Source of the DNA: Nemertoderma westbladi
Taxonomy: Eukaryota > Animalia > Xenacoelomorpha
NCBI GenBank assembly: GCA_032718475.1
Contig: JAUCBJ010002054.1
Coordinates: 1-64,000 of the forward strand
Direction: 5' to 3'
Length of the DNA: 64,000 nucleotides
Of this stretch, positions 1,204 through 64,000 are shown in pieces. The stretch's first letter is position 1, and each line of letters begins with the position of its first letter. The notes beneath the pieces are model-generated. The model made no database searches and was not told the DNA's origin. It saw nothing but the letters and a program-made list of their open reading frames with translations. The position numbers and the translations under genes are program-made.

Positions 1204-1470
1204 TGCTTCTGGATTGCGGCGTAAGCAATCAAGTCGAAAGTACCGGTCGACCGGAAACCTGTAGGCCTGACTGCCTGATCACCCGAACCGGTACTTACAG
1301 TACAGGTACAGCAGTATTATTCGATTTTGATAATTATATACCGGTAGGCCTTAATAATTAATCAGGGACTGCAGCCCTGGTTTTTTATTGAGATTTTACT
1401 TATTTCTGTCAGTTTTATTTATTTGTAGGCCAGTATTGAGCAGAAGGCGTGTAAGCTTGCTCAGTCTATA

Positions 1471-29174: not shown

Positions 29175-29185
29175 ATAACGGATAT
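29175..29185 (+). other. Candidate self-priming primer-binding site of E2 (ATAACGGATAT)
   Basis: Exact reverse complement of LTR 28404-28414 (ATATCCGTTAT). Confidence 0.7.
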
Positions 29186-31343
29186 TGCTTCTTTATTGCA
29201 GTAGGCAATAAAGCTGAAGTACCGGCAACCGGTACCCAGTAGGCCTGACTACCTAACCACCCGGACCGGTACCTACAGCAGTACAGGTACAGCAGTATTA
29301 TTCGATTTTGATAATTATATACCGGTAGGCCTTAATAATTAATCAGGGAGGGCCCGCCCTGGTTTTTTATTGAGATTTTTACTTATTTCTGTCAAGTTTT
29401 ATTTGTTTGTAGGCCAGTATTGAACAGAAGGCGTGTAAGCCTGATCAGATTGTACAGACAATTTGTAGGCTGAGCTGTTGTCTGATTGCTGTTAAGTCTG
29501 AACGGATTGCAGTGTGTGTAGATCACCTGTCCGATTAAGTACGATTAGGCAGTAGGGGCAGCGAACGCTGTAAGGTAAACCCCCAACTAAAGAATAAGTC
29601 GCACTACTGGGTTAGAGCGCATACTCCCTAATCATTTCGGAGTCTGCATGTCCTGTAGTTTATTTAGGCTTGAGAGTAGTCTGCCATCGTTTGGTCTGTA
29701 CTTTGTTTGTGTAAGTCTGTACGGGTAGCGTATAATTTTATTTAGATAATTTGTAGGCTGGATAGTTGTCTGGCTGTTATTAGGTCTGAACGGATTGCCG
29801 CGTGTGTAGATCATCTGTCCGATTAAGTACGGTTAGGCAGTAGGGGCAGCGAACGCTGTAAGGTAAACCCCCAACTAAAGAATAAGTCGCACTACTGGGT
29901 TAGAGCGCATACTCCCTAATCATTTCGGAGTCTGCATATACCGTAGTTTGTTTAGGCTTGATAGTAGTCTGTCAGTGTTCGGTCTGTATTTTGTTTGAGT
30001 AGTTTGTACGCGTAGCGTAATATTTATTATTCAGAGTTTATGCGATTATCCGCAACATTCATTCCCCAAGTTTGTTCCTACAGTAATTGTGTTTGTTATA
30101 CATACCGCTATAGTTAAATTAACCCCGGTACTACACGGGCTGCTCGGCGTAGGTAAAGACTGGTGATTTTGTGCATCGGTCACTCCAGCAGATGCCGTGG
30201 TTCTTTTAGCTGTTCAAGTATATTTAACTACTGATTATCTGTTATATAAGTACTCGTACCTAATTTAGGGTTTAGTGTACAGTACTTTCCGAAGTAATTA
30301 TTGTAGACATTATATCTGTGTTGTAAAGTGGTTGATAGGCACATTCGATTAGCTCTATTAACTTCTAGGTAGGAACACTCCGTGATACATAACGTAGAAC
30401 CTATAGCGATACGGCTATAGGTCGTCAGGCGGTGGTATTTTCCTATCTAGACAACGCAGTGTATTTACTACTACTTATTATTTCAAATACCGTAGTACCC
30501 TGTCCGTTGTAATAACCGGTTATCTAACCCTTTGTTAGGCTGGTTTGTAGACTTCTTGTAAAATTACCCTAAAAATTCGTATTTTGTGTTTTTGTAAATT
30601 TTTGTGTTTATTTAGAGATTGTAATCTCACCCGAATTGTACGTAATTTGTAGTATTAAGTAACTTAGGTAAATTAGAATTATTTGTTTTAGTGTCCTATA
30701 CGTAACACTTCACTAAAAGCGCACCGCTTTGTGTAGTGATTACCCCAGAAATAATAACATTTATTTCAAACATTGACTAAACCCATTAAAACGGGTATAA
30801 ATACATTATAAATCAAATCTAACGATTTATAAATAGTAGGCCTACCATAAAACCATTAGGTCTCAATATCAGTTGGATTACTGCTTAAATAACGGTAATA
30901 AAGTAAGTTAAAGTAACCAAGTAACCCTAAAGTTCAGAAATTCAATTATTCTAAAATAATTGATATACCGGTATTTACGATAGGCCTATTATCTTATTTC
31001 TATAAATCTAGGCTGAAATTATACCGGTACTTGTAATTAATTCTATTCCAGAATTATATATACTACAAACTGTAAGCTGTATACCGGTATTCCGATAGGC
31101 CTATTATATATTTATATATATTTGTGCTAAAATTATACCGGTATTCTGTGATAAACATAGTCTGTAATAATACTTATATAGTTATATATACTATAAGTAT
31201 ACCGGTATTCTAATATATTATATATATCACGCTACACTGAGTAGCAGTACCGGTAATTAATTACTAGGCTAGCAGTTAATACTGAGTTATTAGACTTACT
31301 CAGACTGTAATACAGCAGTAGACATTCAACGGTATACATAGTC

Positions 31344-34300: not shown

Positions 34301-36389
34301 TGGAGAAGTGAAATTACAGCTCCTAAGGCAGTCCAGAGAGAAGACATTGGAAAACAAGGTAAGTGAGAAACCCGTTTCTAGGAGAAGGGTAATACCAGTA
34401 TGTTATACCGACGACGGTGAAAGCCAAACTTCTCAAGGAGAGGACAGCGGGAAAGACACTGACAGATCTTATGTCAATAAAATGCCTAAAGATCAGGTAA
34501 GTAAATCCAAGTCTCGACCCAATGACAGAAGGGAACCGGTACAAAAAACCCCTCCTACGTCTCCTAAAAGAATTCAGGTGAGAAAGCCCGAGGAAAGAAC
34601 AAGTGTGCACCACATAGCACATGTTAAAGTAAGTAACATCAAGCCCAAATGTGTGCTGTGCGACGGGCCCCACCGTTTAAATGCGTGTGATAAATTCCTG
34701 AGGAAATCACTAAAGGATAGACGTGAAGTCATGTGGGATAAGCGGTTGTGTTATAATTGCCTCAGACGAGGACACCAACGGCGAACCTGTAACTCCGACG
34801 CAAGGTGTGCAAAGTGCGGCGCAAAACATCATATCTTGTTGCACACGGAATTCGAACGAAACAGCCCGAGTCAGGTAAGTGAGTCCGAACTACATGTCCA
34901 ATTCAGTGATGTGAACGACACTGATCAATCTGAGATGGAAGGATTCTATACGGACGAGTTCTCCGACCAAAACGAATCCTGTTACCTAATAAACACCACC
35001 GCAGTGTATCGAGCACTCGTGTATGAGAAAGACACAGACAGCGACCTTACCTTAACTACTTCCGATCAACAACCATCTTGGAAAGCGCCAACTTCCAATA
35101 TAGGAATCCGAGAATTTCCTGTAGTCCAGTTACGGGTCCACGGACCTCAGAAGAGCTATATAGTGAACGCCCTCCTGGACTCCGGTAGCACAGGAACATT
35201 CATCGATAAAGAACTAGCCGAAGTCATCTTTGCTGGACAACCCAAGTTCCGAACCAAGCTAAACATGTCAGGGATCATGCAGGTTTGGAATTCTACTGTA
35301 GCTGCCGACTATTATATAGGTGAGTTGTCCACCCCACAGGATAAACTAGGAGAATACAGTATAAGGTCAGTGAAAATGGTGGCTATAAAGAACTTCGCTA
35401 CTACTCAAGCAGACCTTTATAATTGGGACGAGGATGAGAGCATCCAACATCTTAACATACCTCGATTCCAGACTGATTATCCTGGAGTGCAAATACTCAT
35501 CGGCCAAAACGCGCATGAGGCGCTGGAGACATTAGAGAAACGACCTGCTCAACCGCAGCCACTACAGACCTATGCGGTAAGAACTAGAGTAGGTTGGTAC
35601 CTTACTGGACCTTCCCGTAGAACGCTCAGGGAAAGACTGCTTCAAGATCGCGTCTGCCAGGTGAGTGAATGGGAAGATGATACTAGTGAGGGAGACGACC
35701 CAACTGAGGGAACACCACACTCCTCAGATAATGACAATCTTAGCTCCAATGTAGATCAATGGAGATATTGCCCCAAGAAGTTTAATCCAACGGACATCGC
35801 TTCCAGAGGAGCAACTCCTCAAGAACTGACAGATACTATAGACCGGTTAGGTGAACCCGACTTCCTGAGTAAGGAGAATGAATGGCCTCCCCATCTTACT
35901 CCGACTGAGATTAGACCAGCCAAGGGAGCGGAGAAAGTCGAACCTGAAACCCGGACGGGTGGATCGGAGTTATTTGAACCCGGGATAGATCTGTCGGTAT
36001 TACATGTTGCCAGGGACGACGCCGTGGATCTGGGCCTCCCCACCGCGAGTGGATCCTTCATGAAGATCAGAGAGAGCGATTGGAGCTCTGGAACATCAGA
36101 CGTCTCGCAGGGACTCTCACCTCTCCTGCAGAGAGCGACGGACCACTATAGCTCCTGGAATCGGCTTTGTGACGCCGTCATATACTTTGAGCGATGTTTC
36201 TATCGTCACTATTCCAGGACGAAGAGGAAACCTGGAATTGTATTCAGGATGCAGCGACTCAATCACCCAGTCGGTCGTTTGTGTTTATCGGAAGGGAATG
36301 GAGGACTCTCCGGAAACTGTGGAAGGCAAGATTCTCTTCCCACGACCACCTCCCTAATCCTTCAAACATCTAGGGACTCCATAACGTAA
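31344..36389 (+). CDS. BEL/Pao Gag-protease polyprotein with RT/RNase H/integrase deleted in frame (1681 aa)
   Basis: Colinear with the E1 ORF; adds an A/E/K repeat expansion and retains SSWNRLC..IYFERC from the RH-IN linker. No RT or integrase core. Confidence 0.92.
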   Translation: MSDTKQNLSDSLLDVTICDSDRDVQPSGRKSSSPPTVRKVIPPVVITEPRLVQHRRSIIGTRAQVKRDQKAAEQQQPASQELIPQRPSSSSSEDTVELTPERGAEMTDAVYTDPLLILPAAVLAGLLIAVEEHQIDWARSQRSTRDSYAGYTSEELKSIVESQWNFPGPGLPFDLSEAAWEDIHRMGVAKETIDPAVWKRSAAGYAQGFFSSMERVERQLFQQPQGPQEQGSLLYQVRERVLRIRLILSAFEEASKRRQDTSLQVAVKTWFQRVNLQVQGTAQWKAQLEERSNHGESTDATFSQVESEATAEKPHKRDAIDIYLSDYQRFLGDDELRRRLEGLSPNSEGTKLVLDAIDVEMRAANQAKFDEQLRLTRVQEEQVKKKRIEDRKKAAVVAAEAERKLAAAEAAAEAKAAAAAAEAKAAEAAAEAKAAAAAAEAKAAEAAAEAEAKAAEAAAEAKATLAEAAAERKAVEAVAEAERRATEETTQLELENIQENQDCINKQLTASNMQMMDRSTPKRQGYTSSEEGDTTDTEGKGNRSRLSRRKRTFHRQKLPDLPPAVRRQLNNTNLGSTEPTDQIIKIERLPTIVDEPEIIRPVLEITPSVIDTPVLPEATYKFPLHSTKLPVPRRTAPETVQVLDPERNIHNLSPVVPRPPATTLATPASAVEWVDERRRGMDILLGQMQETVQQFKGTVRESRLELQEVQQSIALERDKLVNTQKGIPPPSVTMCQPVRSEVLHAQGVEPTRIYTASEVETPIVNPIKGNYRPVDNDIPYRTDHNPRNLYTDNSILNSTMAQESFTRQMARTEARQAVKVGEIVKFNGDEMKWLPFNEYYKDNIQNSVLSNGEKLRYLIECLEGSPKLMALRFIGHPDGLRQVWDTLNIRYGNRNNIAGYLYAKLVAPRKFISSGIIEFSDEIQEICRQLDWLGKSHEYQSAMVIRAVASTLPKGGVGTRWDKKVLYMMEQQRRDPTMADLMSFLDGEVKLQLLRQSREKTLENKVSEKPVSRRRVIPVCYTDDGESQTSQGEDSGKDTDRSYVNKMPKDQVSKSKSRPNDRREPVQKTPPTSPKRIQVRKPEERTSVHHIAHVKVSNIKPKCVLCDGPHRLNACDKFLRKSLKDRREVMWDKRLCYNCLRRGHQRRTCNSDARCAKCGAKHHILLHTEFERNSPSQVSESELHVQFSDVNDTDQSEMEGFYTDEFSDQNESCYLINTTAVYRALVYEKDTDSDLTLTTSDQQPSWKAPTSNIGIREFPVVQLRVHGPQKSYIVNALLDSGSTGTFIDKELAEVIFAGQPKFRTKLNMSGIMQVWNSTVAADYYIGELSTPQDKLGEYSIRSVKMVAIKNFATTQADLYNWDEDESIQHLNIPRFQTDYPGVQILIGQNAHEALETLEKRPAQPQPLQTYAVRTRVGWYLTGPSRRTLRERLLQDRVCQVSEWEDDTSEGDDPTEGTPHSSDNDNLSSNVDQWRYCPKKFNPTDIASRGATPQELTDTIDRLGEPDFLSKENEWPPHLTPTEIRPAKGAEKVEPETRTGGSELFEPGIDLSVLHVARDDAVDLGLPTASGSFMKIRESDWSSGTSDVSQGLSPLLQRATDHYSSWNRLCDAVIYFERCFYRHYSRTKRKPGIVFRMQRLNHPVGRLCLSEGNGGLSGNCGRQDSLPTTTSLILQTSRDSIT

Positions 36390-37689: not shown

Positions 37690-39276
37690 AACGGACAAAT
37701 GGCCCGAATGTGTGTAATTTGTGACAAGTTGTGTGTGTGGTATTTGTGAGTTTATAGGTGAATGTTACTGCTAAGGTGTGTTTACAGTAGCCAGTCGCAA
37801 TCGTAAAGTAACCTAACTCTCCAAGGAATACCTGAAGTACATCTAAGCCTTTGGGACGGACAGTCGAGTGACTTGTGCCGGTTGTCGTTGTCGTTGTGCG
37901 GCTACGTCGTTGGCGAAAGTACGGCGGCGACGACACATCGGCGCTGAGGATCTCGTCCTGTCCGGGGGTTGATTGGGGTAGGCAGCGACGCCCGCTCGCC
38001 TAAATATAAACTCCTTATAATGTGGATAAACTCATATATAGCAGAAATGACGGAGTTGATAGAAGATGGTCTTGGTATCGGGGAGCGATATACTCTACTT
38101 TTACAAGCGTTTGTTGATAGCTTAATACGCGGCGACATATACGCAGCGTAATGGTACGTATATGGGCTTCTTAACTACTGGTCATTCTATCAATTTACAC
38201 AATACGGACTATGTCGACTATATATCCTGCCCAGCGGAGTCGGAACCATAAACTGAAATTCGAATGCGAAAATTCTATTCGAAATCGGCTCGAAAGAAAA
38301 GACATTAAAGAAACAAATAAACGCGGTAACTCCAACATATATTTGGAATTCTTGATAGAAGCATTGTAACAACAATTAAATATCATCCGCGTTTCCCCTA
38401 CCAGACGTGCGTCTTTGGTATTATTACGGTAAATGCCCTAGATCCAGCCAATAAACGGAAAGACATAAACATCCACGGAAACGTTGTGATAAACACAGTT
38501 GTGTTCGTTATATTTACTGGAGTTTCGAGCGAAACTTGTTTGACGTATCACCTATGCTCACTCGGCTCTAACGATCCTAGAGTAAACCTACGATCAGAGT
38601 CCCGGAATACTCGGTCAAACCTCCTCATTCCTTAGTTGGACCTCAGACCTGCGATCCTGGTGGTGTCGCGGATCCTCTTGGACGGTATTCACTGTTCAAG
38701 ATCTAGTGCTACCCTAACAATTAATCGGTAACACTCCGACAGTGATTTCTAGCTAGCCGCCCATCTTACCTAGCTGGATTATGACGCAGACACCTAATAT
38801 CACTATCCAACCGTATGGTCGTCCCGTTTAACGCGATACAACCCTTCATCAAGGTGAAGGAGAGCGTTGTACGAAACGAGTTAAACGCTATTTTATAAAG
38901 ATCAAAAAAGAAACCTGCGTTTGTTCAGATAAACGTAAGTTATCACAGTAAGTCCAATCGATAAACGAATTGGCCTTATCTCAGTTCGATTGGGAAACCT
39001 CGAATCTCTAAGAAGATATCAAGCTTAGAAAACCCTATTCTCTGCGAGAGTTTTGGACGAACGTATCCCATGACAAGCGGAGGAAAATCAGCTCGAGGAG
39101 AAGCATATCGAAATGGACGAGACACCGACAGTAAACCCAAACCTTCTAATGCAATCATATTGCACCCTTCACCCAGGAGTTATGGCCCTCCTAGTAAAGT
39201 GGTTCCCCCCAAAGAGAAAAGGACTCTTGCTAGCTTTAAAAAACTGCGTAAACGCCGTCCGCGCAAGAAAGACTAA
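37690..39276 (+). pseudogene. Decayed extra ORF of E2, homologous to E1 ~9260-11148
   Basis: Colinear with the E1 region but with more stops and internal deletions; ends in the same basic tail (KKLRKRRPRKKD). Confidence 0.55.
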
Positions 39277-39354
39277 CTGTTTAGAGTATCTTTAGGTTTT
39301 AGAAACTGTGATTTTTATATTTTATAGACTGAAAATCCCATTTTCTGGGAGCGG

Positions 39355-40590
39355 TGTAAAAGCCTTTGCTGAATTGCCCCGTTATTTTTATTATCTTTTA
39401 CATTAAAATACTCTGTAGTTGATTTAATAAGTGTAAGAGACCGTATTATTGCTGTATCGGTGTTTTTAGAGGATCTAAGACCTATTTCCTCCGTATGTGT
39501 ACTGTGAAAGGCATATTTTATGATTCTATGGCAATTCGTGACGCAAAGGGGTGATAGCTACTCTTGAACAGTAGTTACTATGACTACGGTTAACAGCTGA
39601 CATTCATACGTGTTGATTTCCTTTGTTCTACGGCGTCTCTCAGTTCAGTCAGCCAATTAGAGCGTTTTTGTGGCTCCTTGTACAGAAAATTTCCGAGAAA
39701 TGACGCAATGCCTATGTGCAGTGTTTACATTCAGTCCTGAGCCAAAGAAAGAACGGCTTGGAAGTATTTTGTGCTTTACTGTTTTAGCCGTACACTAGTA
39801 GGCTTAATCATAAGGACATATATCCGTTATCTAACTTGACTAACCTAACTCAATGCAATCAATGCATACTGCAGTACTGCATACACTGCATACTGTGTAA
39901 CACTGTGCATACTTTATATTGTTATACTGCTATTTGCTGTCTGTACTTCATAATTTGGTTGATGAATTATTATATTTGGAATAACGATAAATAACCCCGA
40001 AAACCCAATATTCTTGATATACTGAAGGTAAGAGAGAAAGGTTATACATAACGATTGTGACTTATGTTAAAGTGGTTTGAAGTGAATCTAATGTTATTTG
40101 ATAGCCCCTACATGAGTCAGTCCGTGTTCCTTTTATATGTAACTAAAATCAGTGAAGATCGGCAGATCAGTGTGCAGTATTGTGCAGCATTGTGTGCGGG
40201 TGATACTGATAACGAAGCATTTCCTAAAGAATGCGCCATATATGTGAATTATAACTAAGCCATATCGTTGTGATTAGTTTAAGTCATAACTCTGTTTATA
40301 TAGATAGAGCGCCACGTCCTAAAGGAACTGTTAATATTCCCCGAAAGTGAATAATATTGTCAGAGATTATATAATACTGTCAGTCGAATAATACATTAAG
40401 CTTACATAGCAATAAAATTAAGCCGTCGAACCCAATCTCCCGGGAATTATCCAGCGGGTGAATGATCGCGCACAGATTGGTTTCGACTAGTGTAGTGAAT
40501 CAAATATTTGTCATCGGCTAAAGTGATTTATTATCTAACAGACATCCTAATTTGGCGGGTTAAACTGCCAAAGGTCTGAAAGCGCGAACA
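39355..40590 (+). repeat. 3' LTR of E2
   Basis: Near-identical to 27939-29174. Confidence 0.96.
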
Positions 40591-40950
40591 CATGGGCAGT
40601 CTTGAATAGGCTTTCCAGGATTTGGAAGTCACCGAGAATTAATCGGACACTTAAGGTCCGATTATTTAGAGCAGCATTAGTTCCAGTACTCCTCTATGGG
40701 AGTCCATGCTGGGCTCTAACCTGCTGCGGACACCAAATCTCTGGATGGCACATTCACAAGAATGCTACGCCGGGTTCATTGTGTCAAGTACAATGCACAC
40801 ATCTCCAACCAGACACTATATAACATTGGAGGTGTCTCATTGGTTCCCCCAAGCTTGACACTTGAACAAAATCGCCTCCGCTTTGCAGGACATTGCTTTC
40901 GCCGTGAGGACCAGCCAGTGCATAATCTTGTACTTTGGTAGCCTTATGGA
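40591..40950 (+). mobile_element. RTE-type LINE, 3' continuation after the E2 insertion
   Basis: Reading frame resumes with AW-AVLNRLSRIWKS..KVRLFRA..VLLYGS..W, then RLRFAGHC. Confidence 0.88.
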
Positions 40951-41659: not shown

Positions 41660-43776
41660 TCATCCCAAATAGTCCTTAATAAGTCTTAAATTTGAATCAA
41701 ATAGGTTGTTAGTGTCCCATATAGGGTGTTTGTGTCCCATATAGGTTGATTTTGTCCAAAATAGCCTGTAGCTTTATCAAAATTATTTCAAATAGTTTAT
41801 AAATGTAAAGGAATACTGAAAAGAATATTGACTTCATAATCATAGCTTTAATTCCAATTTGTCCCAAATAGGTTGTTTATGTCCCATATAGGGTGTTTGT
41901 GTCCCACACAGGGTGTTTTTATACCAAATAGCATGTAACTTTCTCAAAATGATTTTACATAGTTTATAAATATGATGGAAATACTCAAACGAAAATAGAA
42001 TCCACTATCATATATAGCTTTAATTTAAATTTGTCCCAAATAGGTTGTTTGTGTCCCATATAGGGTGTTTGTGTCCCAAATTGCGTGTGACTTTCTCAAA
42101 ATGATTTTACATAGTTTATAAATATAATGGAATAGTTAAAAGCAAATAGAATTCACTATCATAGCTTTAATTTAAATTTGTCCCAAATAGGATGTTTTTG
42201 TCCCATATAGGGTGTTTGTGTCCCGTATAGAGTGTGAATTGCTTATAATAATTTCAAGTAGTTTCTAAATGTAATGGAATAATAAAAAGAATATAGAATT
42301 CACTATCATAGCTTTAATTTCAATTTGTCCCAAATAGGTTGTTTTTGTCCCATATAGGGTGTTTGTGTCCCGTATAGGGTGTGAATTGCTTATAATGATT
42401 TCAAATATTTTCTAAATGTAATGGAATACTCAAAAGAATATAGAATTCACTATCATAGCTTTAATTTAAATTTGTCCCAAATAGGTTGTTTATGTCCCAT
42501 ATAGGGTGTTTGTGTCCCATATAGGGTGTTTGTGTCCCAAATTGCGTGTGACTTTCTCAAAATGATTTTACATAGTTTATAAATATAATGGAATACTCAA
42601 AAGAAAATAGAATTCACTATCATAGCTTTAATTTCAATTTGTCCCAAATAGGTTGTTTTTGTCCCATATAGGGTGTTTGTGTCCCAAATAGCGTGTTACT
42701 TTCTCAAAATGATTTTAATTAGTTCCTAAATCTCATGGAATACTCAAAAGAATATAGAATTCACTACCATAGCTTTAATTTCAATTTGTCCCAAATAGGT
42801 TGTTTTTGTCCCATATAGGGTGTTTGTGTCCCGTAAAGGGTGTGAAGTGCTTATAATAGATTTCAAATAGTTTCGAAATGTAATGGAATACTCAAAAGAA
42901 TATAGAATTCACTATCATAGCTTTAATTTAAATTTGTCCCAAATAGGTTGTTTTTGTCCCATATAGGGTGTTTGTGTGCCAAATAGCGTGTGACTTTCTC
43001 AAAATTATTTTACATAGTTTATAAATATAATGGAATACTTAAAAGAAAATATAATTCACTATCATTTTTTCTTTAATTTAAATTTGTCCCAAATAGGTTG
43101 TTTGTGTCCTGTATAGAATGTTTCTGTCCTGAATAGGGGAATACAGCTTGCCAACACATTGTTGCTGAATAGGGTGTACATTTCTTATAATGATTTTAAA
43201 TAGTTTCTAAATGTAATGGAATACTCAAAAGAATATAGAATTCACTATCAGAGCGTTAATTTAAATTTGTTCCAAATATGTTGTTTGTGTCCCAAATTAG
43301 GTGTTTGTGTTCCATATAGGGTGTTTTTGTCCCATATAGCGTGTGACTTTCTCAAAATGATTTTAAATAGTTTCTAAATCTCATGGAATCATCAAAAGAA
43401 TATAGAATTCACTACCATAGCTTTAATTTCAATTTGTCCCAAATAGGTTGTTTTTGTCCCATATAGGGTGTTTGTGTCCCGTATAGGGTGTGTTTTGCTT
43501 ATAATGATTTCCAATAGTTTCTAAATGTAGGGGAATACTCAAAAGAATAGCGAATTCACTACCATAGCTTTAATTTCAATTTGTCCCAAATAGGTTGTTT
43601 TTGGCCCATATAGGGTGTTTATGTCCCGTATAAGGTGTTTGTGTCCCAAATAGCGTGTGACTTTCTCAAAATGATTTTAAATAGTTTCTAAATCTCATGG
43701 AATCCTCAAAAGAATATAGAATTCACTACCATAGATTTAATTTCAATTTGTCCCAAATAGGTTGTTTTTGTCCCAT
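41660..43776. repeat. Satellite-like array, ~147-bp unit with internal ~19-bp subrepeat
   Basis: AGCTTTAATT recurs at 42163, 42310, 42457, 42624, 42771, 42919 and onwards; subunits TGTCCCAAATAGGTTGTTT and TGTCCCATATAGGGTGTTT. Ends at the E3 insertion. Confidence 0.92.
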
Positions 43777-46053
43777 TGTTAAACTCTGTACGTACTGCAG
43801 TAGCAATACAGGAAAAAACTCATTTATTTTGTGCCAATACATTTCTACCTAAACGGGTGGCCCTTCTAAATTGATTTAGATACTGTTCAGTTATGCGCAT
43901 GCGCCAGGCCCATTCCATGTAGGTGATAAGAAGGGCGCTGTGATTGGCCATTTATCTGTTTGCTGGACGAATAAGAAAGCTAGTAGCTTCTCATATCCAA
44001 GTAAAAACCGGTTTACTGAATTTTATGCAATGTCAACGAGAACTTACTGGAACCGGTAAAAACCAGTTTTGTTATTATATGGTTGCAAAACAGACCTATA
44101 TTTTTTTTTACTCTTTAAGATTTTATATTGAATTTTGTTTCAGATTATTGTATTGAATTTATCTTATATCCAAGTTCTGATTTTTGTACCGTTAAATGTA
44201 TTCGTACCTATAGATATGTATTAACCCAATTATTTGTTTGTGTTGGTAATTTTGCAAATCAGTATGCGATAAAGACATCCAGCGATCGGTTCGGAATTAA
44301 AACCCCATTGTTTTAACATGAGAGGCGCATTCTCCGTCTAATATAATTATGGAGTGAGGAGGTCGAGCCGTACCGGCCGACTGCAGGAGCCCAAAATGGA
44401 TGGATGATGTTACACAACACGAGTGAAACATAAGTAAGTTCGTCTGGGCAAGCCACAAGGGGAGGGGGGTCTCATTAGGTTGATGTACACAATTCCATTA
44501 GGTTAACTGGTGCTTTAACTATTTCCTGTACTTGGGTTTGGGCCAAATTAAACCGGGATACCCCATCATAATAAACACACAGGCAGCACGGAAGTGCAAA
44601 GGGGGGAGAGTGTTGATATATATTTGGTATCAGTGCTCATCGTTTTGGCTTAGGTTTGGGTCTCATTGGGATACTAATATTCATTTCACTTCATCTTAAA
44701 TTATTTTGACTTTGTTGGGGGTGAGTAAGCTTATATACCAAGTTTCAGCTACAGCATTATCCACAGTCCAGAAATAAATGTATTTGGGTATTTAGATAGC
44801 TAATCATCTCTCTCTCACAATCATTAGTTTGACACTCTTACAGTTACTTTACAGAGTAGAAGTGAAAATTAGAGAATATCGGCAATTGATCCACGAGATA
44901 ACCAGGTTTAGTATTGCGTATAGTTTCCTTCCTTTTACTACCGTCGACAGCGGTGCGGTGTATAGAAATATACAGAATTTGTTATAGCGGGAAAATTTAA
45001 GATAAATTGTTATTTATATTTGTTTGTTTATAAATTGTACTCGATACAACCCTTACCTATCGGCAGTTTAGCTTGCAGTATACGTGGTGGATAAGGGGCC
45101 ATCACGCTAGTAAATTGTATTAAAGGTTGATAATATTAGCAGGCAGGCAGGGATTCCCCACCAACTGGAGTTTCCTTGTTGAGCTTTATATAGACCGGTT
45201 TATTGTTTTGTTTTCTTTAGAAACTGATACGTATTGCGATAATTTGATACGTATTCTACAGTGGTTATTATGTTAATAAATCTGCAATGTGCTTTAGCGA
45301 AATCTTTTTAACAAATTCTTAGCTGATTTGCGTTGTAAAAATTATAAATAAATCACAGAGTTGCTATAGCGCCGCCGTTGAGTAAAGTTTGTATCGAGTT
45401 TGAAAGTTTGTAGAGCCAAAAGGGTTGCATTATAAGATTTCTAAGAAATTAAAAAATTTCGCTCGAAATTGTTAGGATAAAATTAGGGTAAATCTACCAG
45501 ACAGCCATCTAATTCTCTAATACAACTTACAGGAACATCACTTTCGTCACCGCAACCAATCCGGGATCTGGGGACGTTTGACTTGGTACGCAAGTGAACT
45601 GATCATTCACGAGGTTGGGACGTGGGACGGCGTCGTTTAGCAGCAATCACAGGTTGGTCGTAGTGTCGATAGGATTGTGCTTGTGGGATCTATAGTTCAT
45701 TTGTGGCTGTTTGAAGGTTTGTTAAAATACTTATGCACAGTATTTGTGGCATACTTGTGCATACAAAATAAATTTGGTGTTGTAATTTTTTAAGTAAAAA
45801 ATTTAAATTACTTCCTTTGTTGTGTCTTATTGTCCCACCATCCAGGGTCTCCTAAAGTCGAGCCAAGGCTATATTTATGAAATAAATAAAATATAAGAGA
45901 ATTTGGAAATTATTGAGTTGTAAAAGTTGTTTTATTTGAATTCACATTTGAATTGGTGTAATAATTTGTAAACTATTACAAGCAAAGAATTTCATTAAAT
46001 TAAATTAAAATTAAAAAAAAATTTTAATCTATATAAAATATAAAATCCCAAAA

Positions 46054-54471: not shown

Positions 54472-55923
54472 TCACAAAATAATAACAAATTACATAATTG
54501 TGTATATGCAATTCCATGTAAGTTTAAAAAATACGAGTTCAACGTATATTGGGGCGGTGTATTCTGGAACCTGTAATTCCACTGCCTCATGTGTTATATT
54601 TGAAAAAATAAGTATGTTTTTTGTTGAGAATTCGTAAGCATTTAATTTTTTGAAAATTTAATTTATATTTAATTTATATAAAGTTTTCCGAAAATTAAAG
54701 TCTCTCCCTGAAATAAAGAAATAACAAACCTGGAACAAACAACACCAAAGTTATGTAGCGGTATAGCAAAAATTCAAACCAGCCATTAGATTCCCATATG
54801 TACAATTGGTCGATAATGCGACTGTCCAGAGTAGTGCGTGCTGTCGCGGCGTTGTTGAAACGGACCATGGGGCGGACCAACATGCGCACAGATCTTATAT
54901 TGGTTGTTTCATTCATAAAGTTGTGAAACATAATAATATCATATTCATCCATTCTGGCGTTTATTTTAATTGGGAGGGAAATTAGGTGTTCCCAAATTTA
55001 ATTTGACGTTAAAGGCTGACCTACCGAAAAAATTGTATCGACCAAGGTTGGGAAGGGAAATAAATTAACTTTGGGATTGATGATTCACAGTTAAATTGTA
55101 ATAAACCTATATCTCTACTTGGAATGTTATATACTACGTAATGATATGGCTGGCTACTATGTCTCCATTGTTAGCGACCATTATAATGAAATCGAACCGC
55201 TATTTGGTTGGAATTACCATAATTGTGTAAAGAAACCCTTCAATAGATCGGGATGTAGGAATGAAATTCTATATAAACATAAACAGCTCGTTGATTCTTG
55301 CGTCGAAGAAGTCATTGAGAAATGCGCGGCGACGGTTAAACCGGGAGCTGAATCCTATCCGAAGAAGGTTATTCGAAATGTACGGTCAGGACGGTGGTTG
55401 GCGCAACACAGAGACTTCCGGGGCCAAGTCTTGGGGCGTGGTAAAGCACAAAGGGATAGAACGCCATCTGCGGCGGCAGGTATAGCGATTGGTCATTGCC
55501 GATGTCGTAAACCTGCACGGGAAAATTTCCATATCTAAGAATCAAGTAAACTCTGAGACTCAAAGACATGTTTGCCCGATGCCCACCCAAGACCTGAAGG
55601 TGATACGATTTGCTCTATAATCAAAAAAAAAAAGGGGGGGGGGATATGTAAAGGGGATCCTGTTATTACATAATTATTGTGCATTCAGTAAATTTGCTTT
55701 ATTTTCAATGATAGTATATATTTTGTAAACTTGATTGCACTGTACAACAAATATGTGTTATTTCTTTGAATCATTTTCCTCCAACATATCATTATAGTGT
55801 TATTGTTTATAGTGTTACTAAGCAACCAGGCAATATGTTTGTCACCCGAAAGAAGATAAAATTATTATATTGAAAGAAAGGCTTTATTATCTTCATACTA
55901 TATTTAACACTTTATCTTGCGTA

Positions 55924-55985
55924 GCATGATAGCTCATTCGGTAGAGCGCCGGACTTTGAAAGTAATATGTCCAGGTTCGATTCTG
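55924..55985 (+). pseudogene. tRNA-derived (Lys-like) sequence within the E3 3' region
   Basis: GATAGCTCATTCGGTAGAGCG (A box/D arm), GACTTT, GTCCAGGTTCGATTC (B box); the acceptor and anticodon stems do not pair. Confidence 0.6.
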
Positions 55986-56306
55986 TAAGAAAGATAATTT
56001 TTTTTTTTTGCAAATTCAGCAGAAACTTTATTTTTTGATTTTTTATGATAGTCATTATGAATGAAGTATTTAAGTATATTTTAGAATTATTTTGTGTTCA
56101 TACGTCAAGACCCACCCGTCATGTTATGATAGTTTAATTTGGAATAAGTATTTTTAGTTAATTGAATTGTGCTTAATATAGGTCAGTTTAATTTGGAATA
56201 AGTATTTTAGAATTGAATTGTGCATAATATAGGTTATATGAAGGTTATATTTGGGGAAAACATCTTGCGACAATCATAATATCGCTGTTGATGTTTTCCG
56301 GGGCGG

Positions 56307-57139
56307 TGTTAAACTCTGTACGTACTGCAGTAGCAATACAGGAAAAAACTCATTTATTTTGTGCCAATACATTTCTACCTAAACGGGTGGCCCTTCTAAA
56401 TTGATTTAGATACTGTTCAGTTATGCGCATGCACCAGGCCCATTCCATGTAGGTGAAAAGAAGGGCGCTGTGATTGGCCATTTATCTGTTTGCTGGACGA
56501 ATAAGAAAGCTAGTAGCTTCTCATATCCAAGTAAAAACCGGTTTACTGAATTTTATGCAATATCAACGAGAACTTACTGGAACCGGTAAAAACCAGTTTT
56601 GTTATTATATGGTTGCAAAACAGACCTATATTCTTACAGTATTACTCTTCAAGATTTTATATTGAATTTGTTATTGATTGTATTGAATTTATCTTATATC
56701 CAATTCTGATTTTGTACCGTAAAATGTATTCGTATCTATAAATATGTATTAACCCCAATTATTTGTTTGTGTTGGTAATTTTGCAAATCAGTATGCGATA
56801 AAGACATCCAGTGATCGGTTCGGAATTAAAACCCCATTGTTTTAACATGAGAGGCACATTCTCCGTCTAATAATTATGGAGTGAGGAGGTCGAGCCGTAC
56901 CGGCCGACTGCAGGAGCCCAAAATGGATGGATGATGTTACACAACACGAGTGAAACATAAGGGCAGTAAGTTGGACTGGGCAAGCCACAAGGGGAGGGGG
57001 GTCTCATTAGGTTGATGTACACAATTCCATTAGGTTAACTGGTGCTTTAACTATTTCCTGTACTTGGGTTTGGGCCAAATTGAACCGGGATACCCCATCA
57101 GAATAACCACACAGGCATCACGGAAGTGCAAAGGGGAGT
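56307..57139 (+). repeat. Partial 3' LTR of E3
   Basis: Matches 43777-~44609 with several substitutions and indels. Confidence 0.9.
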
Positions 57140-57202
57140 TGTTTGTACTGGTCTGTCCATGTGGTGCCTTCCAAGCACATTGACATCACTTGTCCTAGAG
57201 TT

Positions 57203-59730
57203 CTACATCATTCCTCCCGCACCCTCCGGGAACCATCTAAGTTCCTTGCCCCTATCGTCGTCCTGTCTGGGTCGCTTCCTGCCTTCCTGTTTACCCTTGA
57301 GGCTACTCATCCTTGCTGACACCGTCTTACCAAGCCCCGTTGTTGGTTCGTTGTGTGTTATTAACTCACGGTATCGCTTCACAGGTGGTCCCACTGAGTG
57401 TCCCTCCTGTCTCCCGCTGGTAGCATCCCACAAGATCATCTTCATCGCATGCGGCACGTGTTCCACCAGAAAGTCCCTGAATTCGATCCTATTTTCTGGT
57501 GACCATCTGTGCAGATATCTTTGGGTTTTGATGACCCCTCCGTATGATGCCGCTGTCGCTACCTCCTTATATGTGAATGGTAGTCTCCTCTTGGTGATCT
57601 GCTTGTGGGCTTCTATATTAATGTTGAAGAAATCCCACCGAAACTCCTGGGCCTTCATTCTTTGTCATGTCATGACCCCTACGTCGGCCCACTCCTCGAA
57701 AATGCGGAATTTCTCCTTATCAACCATCCAGTCGCACTGGCGCTCAAAGTGCCCCCTAAACTTGCACTTTGAACACCTGTTGTGCAACCTCAAGCACTCG
57801 CCCATCCTGTGTGTAGACTCGCGGCAGTAAAGACACGCCATCCCCTTTTGGTAACGGTATAGACAGTTCTTTTGCTGATGGGTTAATCTCCCACAGTAAT
57901 CGCAACTGTGTATCATTGTCTCTCGCCCCAAGTCGTCCTTGGCTCCACATCGCCTCCTGGGTCTGTGGAGCCGCTGGTAGGTAAACACCTGGACGTTGTC
58001 TTCCCTACCCATATCGATGTCCTCCTCCACCCTCGGCATCGTTTCTCCAAACACTACCCGTGTTGCCGTCACCGGTTGCTCGCCAAGTCGGATCGTACTC
58101 GCCGTGAAGTCCATTGCTGGCTCCCCGTGCTCCCAGGTCCGCTTACCAGGTTTGTCCCAGAAGGCTCTCGCCCCGCTGGCTGTCACCACTCTTCCATCCA
58201 CCCAGTCCGTGTCCGAGTGGCCGATTCTCGCTATCGGTGGCATCGCCCCAAACTCGTCCTCCTCCTCTTCCCCTGCCGGGGGCGCAATCCTCGCTATCGG
58301 TGGCATCTCCCCAAACTCGTCCCCCTCCTCCTCCCCTGCCGGGAGCGGATCCAAACCCGGGATCCCAGTTAATCCCCTGTGTCCCTTCCTGCCCTGGTAT
58401 CCACCCATGGCCTTCCACCCTTCTACCTCCATCGGTCTCTTCCTTCCGATGTCTCCCTCAGAGCCTGCAGGCATGGGCATTCTTTGCAGCCCCGATGTAG
58501 ACTGTGTCGGTGTCTCTTCCATCCAACCCAGTTCGTCCCCCAGCCGAAACTCGCCCGAGGCCTCCGATCCCCACCTCAGCTCGTACAAATCATGGGCTTC
58601 GAACTCATACTCCTCTCCCCTTATATCTGCCTCTCTGACCGCTGCCTCCCTGGTGTATCTACCTCTCTGTCCACCAGATGTCGGGTATTGTAATATAACA
58701 ACTCGCCCTTCAGCCCCAGGTGGTCTACAAGACCTTCTAGGGCCACCTTAAAAACTCTCCTGTGGTTCAGAGGTGATCCCGATAGTAGCAACGCCGTCGG
58801 CTCCCTCCCGATAGTTACCGTGATGAATAGGTTTAGTAAACCTATCATTATCCAGTCATCTTGTAGGATATATCTCTTCTGACTATATCTTTATCGCTCC
58901 CTTCCGGAAGTGATATAGTTCCTCCTTCCCCAGTCTCGCTCCCCACTTGAGCGAGTTCGCAAGTTCCGCTCGGTATTCCTCCCAGAACTTGTTCCAGTCC
59001 ATCGGCTTGTGGCAGACGAGTTGGCCCATCACCACAGCTCCGTAATGTCCCGTGTTGTCCACCAATCCCAATCCCTCTGGTTTTGTCATAGCCATGTAGA
59101 CTACCTGCATGTCCAGAAAATTGGGGATGCCCGGTCCAATAATTCTGACCGTGTCGCCGCGTATCGCCGATCCCACTTGACTGTAGTCTTCAGTCTTACT
59201 AGCTCCTGCACAGCGTTCGGCAACCGGTTTAACTTCGGCTCGCTCTTCTTTCCGTAGGTCCCTAGGTCGAATAGAAAGATATCTCTGTTCGGAGCTGCTA
59301 AGTGCAGCAATATGGTTCTAGCCGATCCTCCCGACCCCCTTCTCGAGCCCTCGTCGTCCTCCACAGTCCCTTCATCATCTAGGACCATGTATCCACCCTT
59401 CTCCATGGAATCTACAAATGTCCTCCACTCCTTCCTCGGTGGTTTCCTCGGGTACTTTGGTATCTCGAACTTAGCTTCGTCCCCCTTTACAACATAGCGA
59501 AGATGCTCGTCGATCGCGTTGTCCAATGACGGCGTCCCATAGGTCTCGACTAGTCATCGCTCGTGCATCTCTCTAAACTGATCCAGTAGCGCGTGCGCTT
59601 TGTGACCCTTCGGGAGTGGTTTGTAGTATCCCTTCATCTTGTTCTCCGGATGCCTCTGCATGAAGTCCACTAGCAACTCCTTTCTACTCTTCTCCGATTT
59701 CCTCTTCTTCACTAGTTTCTCCGCCATCAT
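57203..59730 (-). pseudogene. Extra ORF downstream of E4 pol: DEDDy 3'-5' exonuclease (WRN-exo/EXD/Mut-7 type) plus three CCHC zinc knuckles, disrupted
   Basis: Joining the minus-strand fragments gives ExoI YMVLDDEG, RTILLHLA..IFLFDL, LPNAVQELV..K/VGSAIRGD (ExoII), FLDMQ and ExoIII SQKRYILQD, then CDYCGRLTHQQKNC, CLYCRESTHRMGEC and CSKCKFRGHFERQC. Confidence 0.72.
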
Positions 59731-60199
59731 GAATCTACTCACTCTCACCGAACTGGTGGGGCCTTAGAAAGGCTCAGTTAGGTAAGAGGGTTACTAAATA
59801 GAATCTTATTAGTCCCGATCAGCGATGGCCTACATCCTATCTGTCCCTTTTACTACGTTTTGTACAAATATTCCCCTTATGTGCCAATTTTTTCCTTAAT
59901 TTACAATTTTGTCCGTTGCTTTTTATTAATGATTCTAGAATTTTCTTCCCCAGTTGCTATAATTTGTTAATTTTGTTATTATTTATATTCTCCCCTACAT
60001 GTGCTATTATCCTATCTGCTACTTGATCACTACCTAAGCAATCCGTTCCTACTTGTATACAGAGAAGACTAGCTACAGTTTTCTTATTGTCTTGCTAGCT
60101 TCCTACCAGACAATTTCCTGGCTCTGTAACAATACCCTAAGTCTGTACTACGGGCTATGTGCTACAGTAATCTAGTTCATGCGGCCTACACGGTCTATT

Positions 60200-60710
60200 C
60201 TACTATGCATACATACCCCCCTCGACTCCTCACGTGGTGCCCTCAGTGCCCACAATAGTACGTATTACGTGGTATTGGTCCCATTGACCCGGCTTATGTT
60301 GGTATTTATTACGTACGTTGGCACATTGTGCCCATCAGACGTATGCAATATATATATACCCCTCCTAATCCTCATTATGGTACTGTGTACGCTTCTGCTA
60401 CAGTATGGGTACATACCCCCCCCCCCCCCCCCCCCAACTCCTCACATGGAGCCCCCAGTGCCCACTATTGTATGTATTATGTATTTATGGTACTATGTAC
60501 CCTTCTACTATGGTATGCGTATATACCCTCCCACAAATCCTCACATGGTGCCCTCAGTGCCCACAAATTTACGGTACTATATACCCCTCTACTACGGTAT
60601 GCGTACATACCTCCCCTTCAACTCCTCATGTGGCACCCTCAGTGCCCACAATAGCACGTATTACGTACTTATGGTACTGTGTACCCTTCTATTATGGTAT
60701 GCATACATAA
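60200..60710 (-). repeat. Degenerate ~80-105-bp tandem repeats between E4 pol and the extra ORF
   Basis: About 4-5 copies of CTCCTCACRTGG..CCCTCAGTGCCCAC..GGTACT.TGTAC. Confidence 0.8.
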
Positions 60711-60746
60711 GCAAAAAATCAGTCCAATATATTGGACGACTCAAGT

Positions 60747-63700
60747 TTAGGGCGATCCCTCCAATAGGCAACACTTCCCTACCGCCCTCCTGTAGGTCTT
60801 CCTATCTTTGGCCCCTATCTTCCCTCTGATCCTCACTTCCACAGATCTAATTCTTCCGTCTTTGGCGGGGTAGGTCTCCACTACCCTAGCCAACCTCCTG
60901 TGATTGTTGATAATCATATCATCTATGACGATTATCAAGTCACCCTTCCTTAGCTCCCTCTGGTTGTTCCTCTATTTACTCCTTTTGTGCAGTGTTGGAA
61001 GGTACTCTCGGATCCACCTTGCCCAATACTCTGCACTTATCGCCTTAGCCACCTTCCAGCTTTGACGCGAATGTATATCATCTGGATCGACGTTTCGCAT
61101 GTCAATCGTCGCTGGTCTCTCCATCAGCAGGTGTGCTGGTGTTAGGACGTCCAGCGATTCTGGATCGTCATTCTCGGATACAGCGGGCAGCTGTTGATAA
61201 TTCCCTCGCATTTCGCCAGCACTGTCCTTAGTACATCCTCAGTGACCATATGGTTATTCATCAGCTTGGGCATAAGTTGTTTGGAGCTTCCCAAAAGTCG
61301 CTCTACACATCCCAGTGTATGTGGCGCGTATGGAGTTCTCCTCTCCCACCTCATTAGGTGTTTCCTCATCGCCGCCTTGACATCTTTGCCCTCCAGAATG
61401 TCAAGGGCCTCCGCTAACTCGTTTTCCGTGCCCACGAAGTTAGTGCCATTGTCTGAGTAGGGTACCTCCACTGTTCCTCCTCTGCGGGTCACGAACCTCC
61501 CCAGCGCATTAATAAATGCCGACGCCGTGGCGTCTTGAGCAAGTTCTATCCCCACATAGCCCTCGTATTATTGCAGACGAAGATAATGCCGTAGCGTTTC
61601 TCCGTATGCCGCATCACCTTTATTTTAATCGGCCCAAACATGTCCATGCCGCCGTGTGTGAACGGTGGGTCGTGATGCCTTACCCTATTGGTCGGCAATG
61701 GCGCCATCTCCTGTATGGCCCTCTCCTTCTTCATCCATCGGCAGGTCTGGCATTGCCCCACTACCGTCTTCACCATCTTTCTGAGCTGGATTACCGAGAA
61801 TATCTTCCGAATCTCTGTCAGGGTATGGTTGGTACCACTGTGTAGTATGGACTTATGGGCATCCCATATGATCTGGTGGACTATTGGTGACTTGTTGGGG
61901 ATTATTATTGGTTTTGGTGGGATCACGGGGCTGATGTTGTTTTCCACCCTGGAGTTCATGACTAGGATCCCATCCTTATCTAATTGTGGTGACAGCGTGT
62001 TGAGCTCGCTGTTTTGACGAATGCGTTGTTGTTTGCTGACGCAGTTTACTTCGTCTCCGTATCCCTTCCTTTGCTCGTATTGTATCAGGGCTTTGGCCGC
62101 TCCTTCCAGATCGATGGTGGGTCTCGTTTTGGCATCCTTACCAGCTCCCCTAAGGAATTCTCCTCAGATATGCTACTAGCTTCTTCGTCTTGTACCAGCT
62201 GGAGCTGTAACTGAGCAACCTATCCATTGGGTTATTGCACGACTTTATCGGGTTTGATCGCAGTGGCGCCTCCTTAACCTCCCTCACTAGTTGACTAAAT
62301 ATTTCCTCCCCCTCTGATTCCTCTCCCGACTCCCCCACTGTCACTTCCTCTGTAGTTGGGTCTACCTTTCTCATCGGCAGCCAGCTCAACCTATCATTAA
62401 GGAAGTGTGGGCCATGCTGCCACAACTCCTGCTTCCATGAGAAAGCGTGGCGTACAACGCCCCTCGATAGCAGATCCGCTGGATTGTCGTCAGTTGGGCA
62501 GTAGTGCCATTTCTCCAAGTCTGACGTTGCTCTTATCTCATCCACTCTGTTCGCCACAAATATGGGATAACGCGTCTTCTCGTTAGGCAACACTACCATG
62601 GAATCTGTCCAGTAGTGCGTCTCTACTATATTTGGTATCGTGTCCACCAAGTATGCTGTCGCTCTCACTCCTAATCTTGCATCCATTAGCTCGAGTTTCG
62701 GCACTGATGCTGAATATGGTGGCGTCGACCTCGCTTTACTAAATGCAAGCCTGGGCTCATGAGTCCCCTTCCGCTGTACCAAATAAAGTGCCGCACCATA
62801 TGCTTCCAGGGATGCATCGGAGAACGTGTGTAGTTCTAAATCGGTCATGTCCCCATCTGGGAAGTATACACGTGGCATACTATAAGTCCCCATTTCTTCG
62901 AGGCTCCCTTTCCATTTTTCCCACTGTTTCCTTATCTCCACTGGACCTCCGCTTCCCAGTCATCTTTTATCTTATAGACCTTCTTCAATACTTGTTTCCC
63001 CGTAACTAATAACGGGGACGCTAGACCTAGCGGATCATAAATCCTCGTTATGTATGACACATAGCCTCGTATAGTATGGATCCAGGCACCCTCCTGACTT
63101 AGTTGATACTCCAACTCATCTGTTTCCCACTTTCATACGATCCCTAGTGACTTCTGCTGCGATTCTATCCTCTTGACCGCCATAATCTGTTCCTTTAATG
63201 TCATAGGTTTATCTATCTTTACCTCCGGTAGTTTATCTTATATGGCTTCCATAAATTCTCTAGAGTTGGACTGGAATTTTGTAAGGTTAAATCCTGATCC
63301 CTTCAGGATGTCGCGAACTTTGAGCCCTATATCGAGGATCTCTTTAACCAAATTTCCAGAACCCATCCCATCGTCCACGTAGAACCCACGTCGAATCATA
63401 TTGATCGCCTTCACACTGTATTCACCCTCTTTGCCCTTCACCGTGTGTCTTACGGCTGTAGTTGTGGTAAATGAGGACGACTTGGCCCCTATATTCTGCA
63501 CTACCATCTTATACATTGGTATCTCCAACGGTTCTTTGTCGCCGTTGTACCACAGGAAGTGCTGACTATCGCTATCCTCCTCTGTCACTCGCTCTTGGTT
63601 AAACATGCCATCTATATCGCACATGAAGGCGTGTTTTCCACTTCTGAACCTTAACAGGACCTCTATCCCAGAGTTGTAGATATTGAGGCCATCCAGTAGG

Positions 63701-64000
63701 TAGTCATTCAGACTCTTGCCATTTGTCTTGGCAGATGCGTCGACCACCATTCTTAACTTGCCCTTCTTAGGGTCCAGAGCCACATGAAGTGGCAAATAGT
63801 AGGTCCTATTGGTATTTGGTTCATCCACCGGTAGTTCCACAGCCCATCCTCGATCCACGTACTTCTTGATGGTCTTGTGGATGTATTCATTCTTTTCGGG
63901 GCTCCATCTAAGCGTTTGCTTTAATTTTCGAAGCCTCGTCAAGACCATCCTTTTATTGTCTGGTAGGGGCAACTTCGGCTGCTTCCATACCATCCCTATG
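60747..64000 (-). pseudogene. BEL/Pao pol (RT, RNase H, integrase) of decayed element E4, runs off the window
   Basis: FYVDD, FSDAS, HYWTDS, NPADLLSRG, GMDMFGP, YSDNGTNFVG and YRRAVGKCCLL, split by several frameshifts and stops. Confidence 0.93.

What the first reader, a model, noticed from the sequence alone, without database searches (positions are those of the whole stretch)
57203..59730. BEL retrotransposon cargo gene: DEDDy 3'-5' exonuclease fused to three CCHC zinc knuckles
Seen: about 1 kb downstream of E4 pol, on the same strand and with no LTR between, the fragments join (a few stops and frameshifts) into a roughly 800-aa protein. It has a basic N-terminus, all DEDDy catalytic positions (LDDEG, IRGD, YILQD) with WRN/EXD-like spacer motifs, an acidic linker with a duplicated PAGEEE.DEFG.MPPIARI, and three C-x2-C-x4-H-x4-C knuckles. 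Established: this exonuclease family includes the WRN exonuclease domain, EXD2 and Mut-7/Nibbler (small-RNA 3' trimming); retroelement RTs lack proofreading; CCHC knuckles bind single-stranded nucleic acid. Inference: an element-encoded nuclease in the env position, possibly a counter-defence against piRNA/siRNA, a primer or cDNA end-processing enzyme (relevant to self-priming), or a trans proofreader.
Basis: partly seen in the sequence, partly recalled or inferred. Interest (0 to 1): 0.85.

Follow-up and report, generated by a model that had tools for sequence, protein, structure and literature searches.

The report
BEL retrotransposon carrying exonuclease-knuckle gene
A broken copy of a many-copy BEL/Pao jumping gene carries, where related elements can keep an envelope gene, an extra gene for a likely RNA-trimming enzyme joined to three zinc knuckles; similar enzyme cargo is known from rotifer elements, and its job is untested.

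Summary
On the minus strand, 1 kb behind a decayed BEL/Pao pol, five pieces (two stops, three frameshifts) span about 840 codons. They carry the three DEDDy motifs, an acidic linker with a 63-nt duplication, three exact CCHC knuckles and a small helical end domain.

The frame ends at a polypurine tract and a TG start like those of the neighbouring elements' 3' LTRs. Only about 72 nt of that LTR survive, fused to the next element's LTR. Contigs of two independent studies (a third sparsely) show the gene is multi-copy like pol, and most copies lack two of the breaks.

The nuclease call has moderate support. Pfam, local HMMER, hhalign, single-sequence folds and four homologue searches give nothing. 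An ordered eight-block test gives z 5-6, and the best frame-free chain in the window. WRN/EXD-like and RNase D-like blocks fit about equally; PolA proofreading blocks do not fit.

DEDDy cargo is published for rotifer LTR elements; I found no paper for BEL/Pao or for the knuckle fusion. Most likely an accessory single-stranded-RNA 3' exonuclease acting on silencing RNAs (inferred). New variant of a known kind.

The parts
57203..59730 (-). Decayed third gene of element E4, about 841 codons in five pieces: stops at 59554-59556 and 57665-57667; frameshifts near 59180, near 58885 and between 58750 and 58620
   Evidence: codon-position GC pattern of all five pieces like that of pol
59581..59730 (-). 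Basic N-terminus (14 K/R, 6 D/E in first 50 residues), two tandem ATGs
59368..59382 (-). ExoI motif (D-x-E in LDDEG)
59263..59310 (-). Two strand-like blocks LLHLA and FLFDL matching the blocks after ExoI in the reference proteins
59153..59164 (-). ExoII motif (VG-x5-D; IRGD)
58994..59119 (-). Spacer blocks FLDM and KPMDW between ExoII and ExoIII; about 35 extra residues follow compared with the reference proteins
58858..58881 (-). ExoIII motif (Q-x2-Y-x3-D-x-W; QKRYILQDDW)
58227..58347 (-). 63-nt tandem duplication in the acidic, Gly-rich linker
57734..57904 (-). Three CCHC zinc knuckles (57904-57863, 57835-57794, 57775-57734)
   Evidence: weak Pfam zf-CCHC_4, E 0.024, under cut-off
57455..57637 (-). 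Predicted small helical domain after the knuckles; no fold match
   Evidence: (blocks of pLDDT 62-81)
57208..57225 (-). Polypurine-tract-like stretch before TGT, like the 3' LTR junctions of E1 and E3
57136..57207 (-). Likely remnant (72 nt) of the E4 3' LTR; the gene's stop codon lies in its first five bases; other copies run on past 57135
   Evidence: loose ends at 57135 in X2 and X3, at 57142 in X3
59763..59781 (-). Branch-point and splice-acceptor-like motif 33 nt before the first ATG (weak)
   Evidence: only hit in the E4 minus strand; 150 of 5000 spacer shuffles give one as near
59731..60746 (-). Non-coding spacer between pol and the third gene, with imperfect internal repeats and no LTR copy
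60747..64000 (-). Decayed BEL/Pao pol of E4 (RT, RNase H, integrase, DUF5641), running off the window
56307..57136 (+). 3' LTR of neighbouring element E3, cut short and fused tail to tail with the E4 LTR remnant

Best explanation
The stretch is the broken third gene of a multi-copy BEL/Pao retrotransposon family, lying between pol and the likely start of the 3' LTR, and it likely encodes a DEDDy 3'-5' exonuclease joined to three CCHC knuckles that would trim single-stranded RNA. Shown: position, motifs, multi-copy state, absence of a membrane segment. Inferred: intact copies would make the protein from a spliced or subgenomic RNA, separately from Gag-Pol; the knuckles would hold single-stranded RNA and the two-metal site would remove nucleotides from free 3' ends. 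The target I think most likely is host silencing RNA directed against the element (small-RNA precursors before their 3' ends are methylated, or antisense transcripts), which would make the gene a counter-defence accessory that replication itself does not need. Odds: element-encoded gene 0.93; DEDDy domain 0.85; this target, given a nuclease, about 0.5.
For: BEL/Pao identity: Peptidase_A17 E 3e-23, DUF5641 E 2e-9. The frame ends at a PPT-TGT junction like those of E1 and E3. All 30 bins of 55500-64000 are covered in runs X1, X2 and X3 (two studies), 20 of 30 in X5. At the listed variant places X1 shows 10-48 contigs in the third gene and 6-59 in pol. The frameshift near 58885 is absent from 5010 of 5028 depth in X1 and from all depth in X2 and X3; at the stop near 57666, 67-83% of depth reads otherwise. 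Block-chain tests z 5-6, in the range of true DEDDy proteins of other subfamilies (37.9-57.6 bits for 21 of 23). D, E, D, Y, D are all present. The reference group is WRN/EXD2/Mut-7-like. PolA blocks do not fit. No hydrophobic segment above 1.34. E1-E3 show no such chain, nor does a metagenome BEL element show a long frame in 1.9 kb behind pol. Nibbler trims pre-piRNA 3' ends before Hen1 methylation (bioRxiv 2020.07.08.193029, passages).
Against: Pfam, NCBIfam and PDB sequence searches of the pieces give no nuclease hit. Local HMMER on the X-read domain: 97 of 2000 shuffles reach it. Ordinary glocal alignment only z 1.7-2.1. hhalign: 61 of 208 shuffles and 2 of 25 decoys reach it. The block test was designed after I had seen the motifs, uses bacterial references only, and with the widest spacing it chose another ExoI block. 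No contig spans pol to the third gene. Selection evidence is thin: 12 of 23 variable sites at third codon positions, p 0.048. The rotifer study found no clear link between ORF3 and copy number and no departure from neutrality (PMC5408684 discussion). Nothing here bears directly on substrate.
Confidence: 0.45

Rival explanations
1. Same gene, but it works on the element's own nucleic acid: the knuckles bring it into the particle, where it would trim the primer, the RNA 3' end or cDNA ends.
For: Knuckles are nucleocapsid-type (established knowledge). Rodriguez et al. propose 3'-end processing of element RNA for rotifer DEDDy ORFs; Dada transposons carry a DEDDy domain proposed to process 3' ends (PMC3706591, passages). 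WRN-like blocks fit best by a small margin, and WRN acts on DNA.
Against: Separate frame 1 kb behind pol, not part of Gag-Pol. E3 has a complete 2818-codon gag-pol frame and no such gene, so it is not a core need. The E4 primer site is outside the window, so the self-priming idea could not be examined.
Confidence: 0.25
2. A trans-acting proofreader for reverse transcriptase.
For: DEDD nucleases proofread in DNA polymerases and nidoviruses (PMC7968707, search listing only).
Against: PolA exonuclease blocks score z 0.2 (only 4 references). The element is of ordinary size as far as seen. Copies differ widely (2015 of 8067 contigs under 90% alike in X1), though this also reflects age.
Confidence: 0.07
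3. The N-terminal half is not a nuclease, or is an inactive one, and the protein is an RNA-binding scaffold; the motif chain is coincidence or relic.
For: All standard profile and fold tools failed. EXD1 and Maelstrom are inactive DEDD derivatives in the piRNA pathway.
Against: All five catalytic positions are present in order and spacing. The frame-free chain is the best in 128 kb of strand.
Confidence: 0.15
4. A host gene or the first gene of another element that happens to sit behind this pol.
For: No single record links pol, the gene and both LTRs. Three-knuckle clusters also occur in ORF1 of non-LTR elements (recalled).
Against: Many divergent copies, as for pol. No introns needed. Ends at a PPT-TGT junction. 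Decay like pol, which has 4 frame changes in 3.2 kb. One deletion joint in X2 and X3 ties 58322 to 60625, next to the pol end, but with only 23 letters on the short side.
Confidence: 0.05

Closest known systems
DEDDy ORF3 of Juno and Vesta LTR retrotransposons and Athena/Terminon elements of bdelloid rotifers (PMC5408684; abstract, passages, sections 3.1, 3.2 and discussion read)
   Same: Enzymatic third gene downstream of pol in place of env; DEDDy type; no transmembrane segment; function unproven.
   Different: Carrier here is BEL/Pao (Juno and Vesta are gypsy-like, recalled). Rotifer motif is DEED, here DEDD. No knuckle fusion is described there ('CCHC' occurs 0 times in the text; knuckles are described for gag and pol). 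Orthology not tested.
WRN exonuclease, EXD2, Mut-7/Nibbler (DEDDy, PF01612)
   Same: Order and spacing of eight blocks, including VG-x5-D and Q-x2-Y-x3-D-x-W.
   Different: No HMM hit; about 35 extra residues before ExoIII; RNase D blocks fit nearly as well; fused to knuckles rather than a helicase or Mut-7 domains.
env-bearing BEL/Pao elements (Tas, Cer13, Atlas; PMC8742986 whole text, PMC9094657 passages)
   Same: Same family, same third-gene position before the PPT.
   Different: Their third gene is an envelope-like protein. Neither text mentions an exonuclease. I recall that the 2000 paper on Cer elements may mention an exonuclease-like extra domain; it is not held, so this is unverified.
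Dada DNA transposons with a DEDDy domain (PMC3706591, passages)
   Same: Mobile element carrying an intact DEDDy domain.
   Different: Inserted inside a DDE transposase, not a separate gene of a retroelement.

Membership tests
BEL/Pao (Belpaoviridae) element | Pao-type pol domains (Peptidase_A17, DUF5641) | tested here: met
BEL/Pao (Belpaoviridae) element | RT, RNase H, integrase order | tested here: met
   collinear tblastn to E3 and L124 polyproteins, 30-40% identity
BEL/Pao (Belpaoviridae) element | Polypurine tract directly before a 3' LTR | tested here: met
   motif like E1 and E3; LTR cut to 72 nt, other copies run on; boundary rests on motif, not on a second LTR
BEL/Pao (Belpaoviridae) element | Two matching LTRs, primer-binding site, target-site duplication | not testable with these tools
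   5' end lies outside the window; no genome held
env-like third gene | Signal peptide or transmembrane anchor | tested here: not met
   highest 19-residue hydropathy 1.34, on the ExoIII helix
DEDDy 3'-5' exonuclease | ExoI D-x-E, ExoII D, ExoIII Y-x3-D in order | tested here: met
DEDDy 3'-5' exonuclease | Match to a family profile (PF01612 or own HMM) | tested here: inconclusive
   no Pfam hit on pieces, but the domain could only be given in parts; own HMM on the whole X-read domain p about 0.05; hhalign not significant
DEDDy 3'-5' exonuclease | DnaQ-like fold | tested here: inconclusive
   single-sequence model of the first half, pLDDT 38; best Z 4.2
DEDDy 3'-5' exonuclease | Metal-dependent 3'-5' activity | not testable with these tools
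   needs bench assay
WRN/EXD2/Mut-7 subfamily | Closer to this group than to RNase D | tested here: inconclusive
   z 4.3 against 3.7; four-sequence subsamples overlap, 3.1-4.4 against 1.9-4.8
WRN/EXD2/Mut-7 subfamily | Clade membership with eukaryotic EXD1/2/3, WRN or Rrp6 | not tested
Juno/Vesta DEDDy ORF3 | Third gene downstream of pol in an LTR element | tested here: met
Juno/Vesta DEDDy ORF3 | DEED in place of DEDD | tested here: not met
   ExoII residue is D here; paper text
Juno/Vesta DEDDy ORF3 | Sequence relationship to the rotifer proteins | not tested
   rotifer sequences not fetched

The most novel reading that the evidence does not exclude
An independent capture of a WRN/EXD-type exonuclease by BEL/Pao elements, fused to three knuckles as a self-contained RNA-targeting nuclease that destroys piRNA precursors: an enzymatic anti-silencing factor encoded by an animal retrotransposon, and one case of a repeated pattern of nucleases filling the env slot.
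Probability: 0.25. Interest if true: 0.8.

Novelty: new variant of a known kind. Interest (0 to 1): 0.5.

Why it matters
What the non-env third genes of LTR retrotransposons do is open. A catalytically complete exonuclease with its own RNA-binding knuckles, in a family with many copies, gives a defined enzyme to test: does an animal retrotransposon attack small-RNA silencing enzymatically, or groom its own ends? It would also extend nuclease cargo from rotifer elements to BEL/Pao.

Tried and rejected
Homologue searches found nothing: 5.8-billion set with the ExoI piece (longer proteins only), the ExoII-III piece (longer only) and the knuckle-to-end region; 1.84-billion representatives with the ExoI piece; phages. 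These are weak negatives.

ESM Atlas gave only unnamed clusters at 0.92-0.93 for the ExoI piece and nothing above 0.83 for the C-terminal piece; the ExoII-III part was not searched there.

Pol-based locus scans: nothing in viral contigs; 3 metagenome loci, of which I read only L124.

Single-sequence folds: first half uninformative. C-terminal piece has no match at E 0.001 and best Z 5.4; WRN HRDC is at rank 40, Z 4.0, which is not evidence.

No RNA holder listed. Rfam gave one sub-threshold match. The idea that the E1/E2 third frames are the same nuclease was rejected. My first idea, that E4 inserted whole into the E3 LTR with its LTR end at 57140, was rejected because other copies run on past 57135.

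In the codon-position count I used 35 of the 40 rows shown: three rows outside the frame and two at the PPT were dropped, and 119 rows were not shown. One search timed out and one search gave no answer; they were repeated. Paper search failed.

Full report
Setting. The window is a cluster of BEL/Pao LTR retrotransposons. Self-comparison gives LTR pairs for E1 (27-1192 and 11227-12392), E2 (27937-29174 and 39353-40590) and E3 (43777-44604 and 56307-57136). E4 lies on the minus strand and runs off the right end. Its pol carries Peptidase_A17 (E 3e-23), an integrase zinc domain and DUF5641, and aligns in order with the E3 and L124 polyproteins, changing frame four times. No whole genome is held.

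The observation. Pol ends at 60747. After a 1016-nt spacer, five reading pieces span about 841 codons from 59730 to 57203, broken by two stops and three frameshifts. All five show the low-GC2, high-GC3 pattern of pol. The named motifs are all present, the linker duplication is 63 nt, and three exact CCHC knuckles start at 57904, 57835 and 57775. There is no transmembrane segment. A piece after the knuckles folds as a small helical bundle without a recognisable match.

Does the gene belong to E4? The frame ends at a purine-rich stretch followed by TGT, like the 3' LTR junctions of E1 and E3, with the stop codon in the first five bases after it. Only 72 nt follow before the E3 LTR. Contigs of other copies run on past 57135 with different sequence (4 contigs in X2, 3 in X3), and one E3 contig runs on like the E3 5' LTR. 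The two 3' LTRs therefore appear fused tail to tail by a deletion (inference). The remnant does not recur in the spacer.

Copy evidence. Four runs of three studies were laid on 55500-64000; X1 and X3 are one sample, and the best holder may be the source of the window. All 30 bins are covered in X1, X2 and X3, and 20 of 30 in X5, which has pieces on both the third gene and pol. In X1, 8067 contigs were laid, 762 of them at least 99% alike, and listed variant places show 10-48 contigs in the third gene and 6-59 in pol. The gene is thus multi-copy like pol. The frameshift near 58885 is absent from nearly all depth, and at the stop near 57666 67-83% of depth reads otherwise. The other three breaks are not among the rows shown. 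No contig spans pol to the gene. Third-position enrichment among variable sites is weak, 12 of 23, p 0.048.

Is it a DEDDy nuclease? Standard tools do not say so: Pfam, NCBIfam, PDB sequences, four homologue searches and single-sequence folds. I collected 40 bacterial PF01612 proteins; one member of a group of 17 has WRN, Mut-7, NrnC and EXD2 as its best PDB matches. Against that group, the domain read with X at the breaks gave p about 0.05 by local HMMER, z 1.7-2.1 by glocal alignment and nothing significant by hhalign.

Block-chain test. Those methods penalise long loop insertions, so I scored eight ungapped blocks in order with free spacers. The result was 51.7 bits, z 5.1-6.2 over three spacer settings, with 0 of 1500 shuffles and 0 of 168 decoys reaching it; 21 of 23 true DEDDy proteins of other subfamilies score 37.9-57.6. 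To remove my choice of frames I repeated it on DNA with frames free: the best chain on both strands of the window ends at 58881 on the minus strand (56.9 against 49.4 for the next), and 0 of 600 triplet shuffles reach it. The test is post hoc and uses bacterial references, so I put the domain at about 0.85. WRN/EXD2-like blocks (z 4.3) and RNase D blocks (z 3.7) fit, while NrnC-like (1.05) and PolA (0.2) blocks do not (group names partly recalled).

How it likely works. Shown: a separate, soluble, multi-copy third gene with complete catalytic positions and three knuckles. Inferred: expression from a spliced RNA, for which there is one branch-point and acceptor-like motif 33 nt before the ATG (p about 0.03, and 7-13 such motifs occur in each other element). 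Also inferred: binding of single-stranded RNA by the knuckles and 3' trimming by the nuclease. E1-E3 show no such gene and L124 shows no long frame behind pol, so it is an accessory. I favour action on host silencing RNAs, by analogy to Nibbler, which trims pre-piRNAs before methylation. End-processing of the element's own RNA or cDNA is the main rival, and proofreading is least likely. No result here tests substrate.

Comparison with what is known. DEDDy third genes are described for rotifer Juno and Vesta elements and Athena elements, with a DEED motif and no shown function (PMC5408684); two reviews repeat this (passages). Dada transposons carry a DEDDy domain. The ICTV profile lists only gag, pol and env for BEL/Pao (whole text), and the BEL/Pao survey PMC3118150 has no occurrence of 'exonuclease' in its main text (its supplements, which hold all element sequences, were not examined). 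Searches listed no paper on a BEL/Pao exonuclease or on a knuckle fusion. The library lacks most subscription papers, and I recall, unverified, that an exonuclease-like domain may have been noted in a Cer element in 2000. Unchecked notes of this scan report Rrp6-like cargo in Gypsy elements of other genomes, once with a knuckle; these are leads, not support, and they lower the surprise.

Verdict. A real accessory gene, probably a DEDDy exonuclease with knuckles, in a BEL/Pao family: a new variant of a known kind, interest 0.5.

Noticed in passing
window 9759-11146 and 38200-39300 (+): E1 and E2 also carry a decayed reading frame between pol remnants and the 3' LTR, 80-83% alike between them; no Pfam hit for the two E1 pieces tested and no similarity to the E4 gene.
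   Followed up: partly
window 55095-55538 (+): E3 has a 147-codon frame between its complete 2818-codon gag-pol and its 3' LTR; only a sub-threshold Pfam match (C19orf84, E 0.28).
   Followed up: partly
window 3353-7969 and 31311-36389 (+): By eye, the E1 and E2 polyproteins pass from the protease region straight to the end of RNase H, so both seem to lack RT: a possible non-autonomous family with nearly identical LTRs (99.5% and 99.8%).
   Followed up: no
window 1193-1230 and 29175-29210: The 5' LTRs of E1 and E2 are not followed by the usual TGG primer-site start, whereas E3 has TGGTATCAG about 25 nt past the shared part.
   Followed up: no
window 25760-27956 and 40590-40950 (+): A non-LTR retrotransposon remnant (endonuclease and RT by eye) appears interrupted by E2.
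   Followed up: no
window 41680-43776: E3 is inserted next to a 147-bp satellite with 20-bp subrepeats; an 86-bp array lies at 16779-18196.
   Followed up: no
window 55917-55985 (+): tRNA-like stretch in the E3 3' untranslated region, not called by ARAGORN, which finds only tRNA-Val at 15360.
   Followed up: partly
window 17999-18604 (-) and 24056-24625 (+): Frames resembling a dynein heavy chain exon and a cornichon-like gene (recalled resemblance, untested).
   Followed up: no
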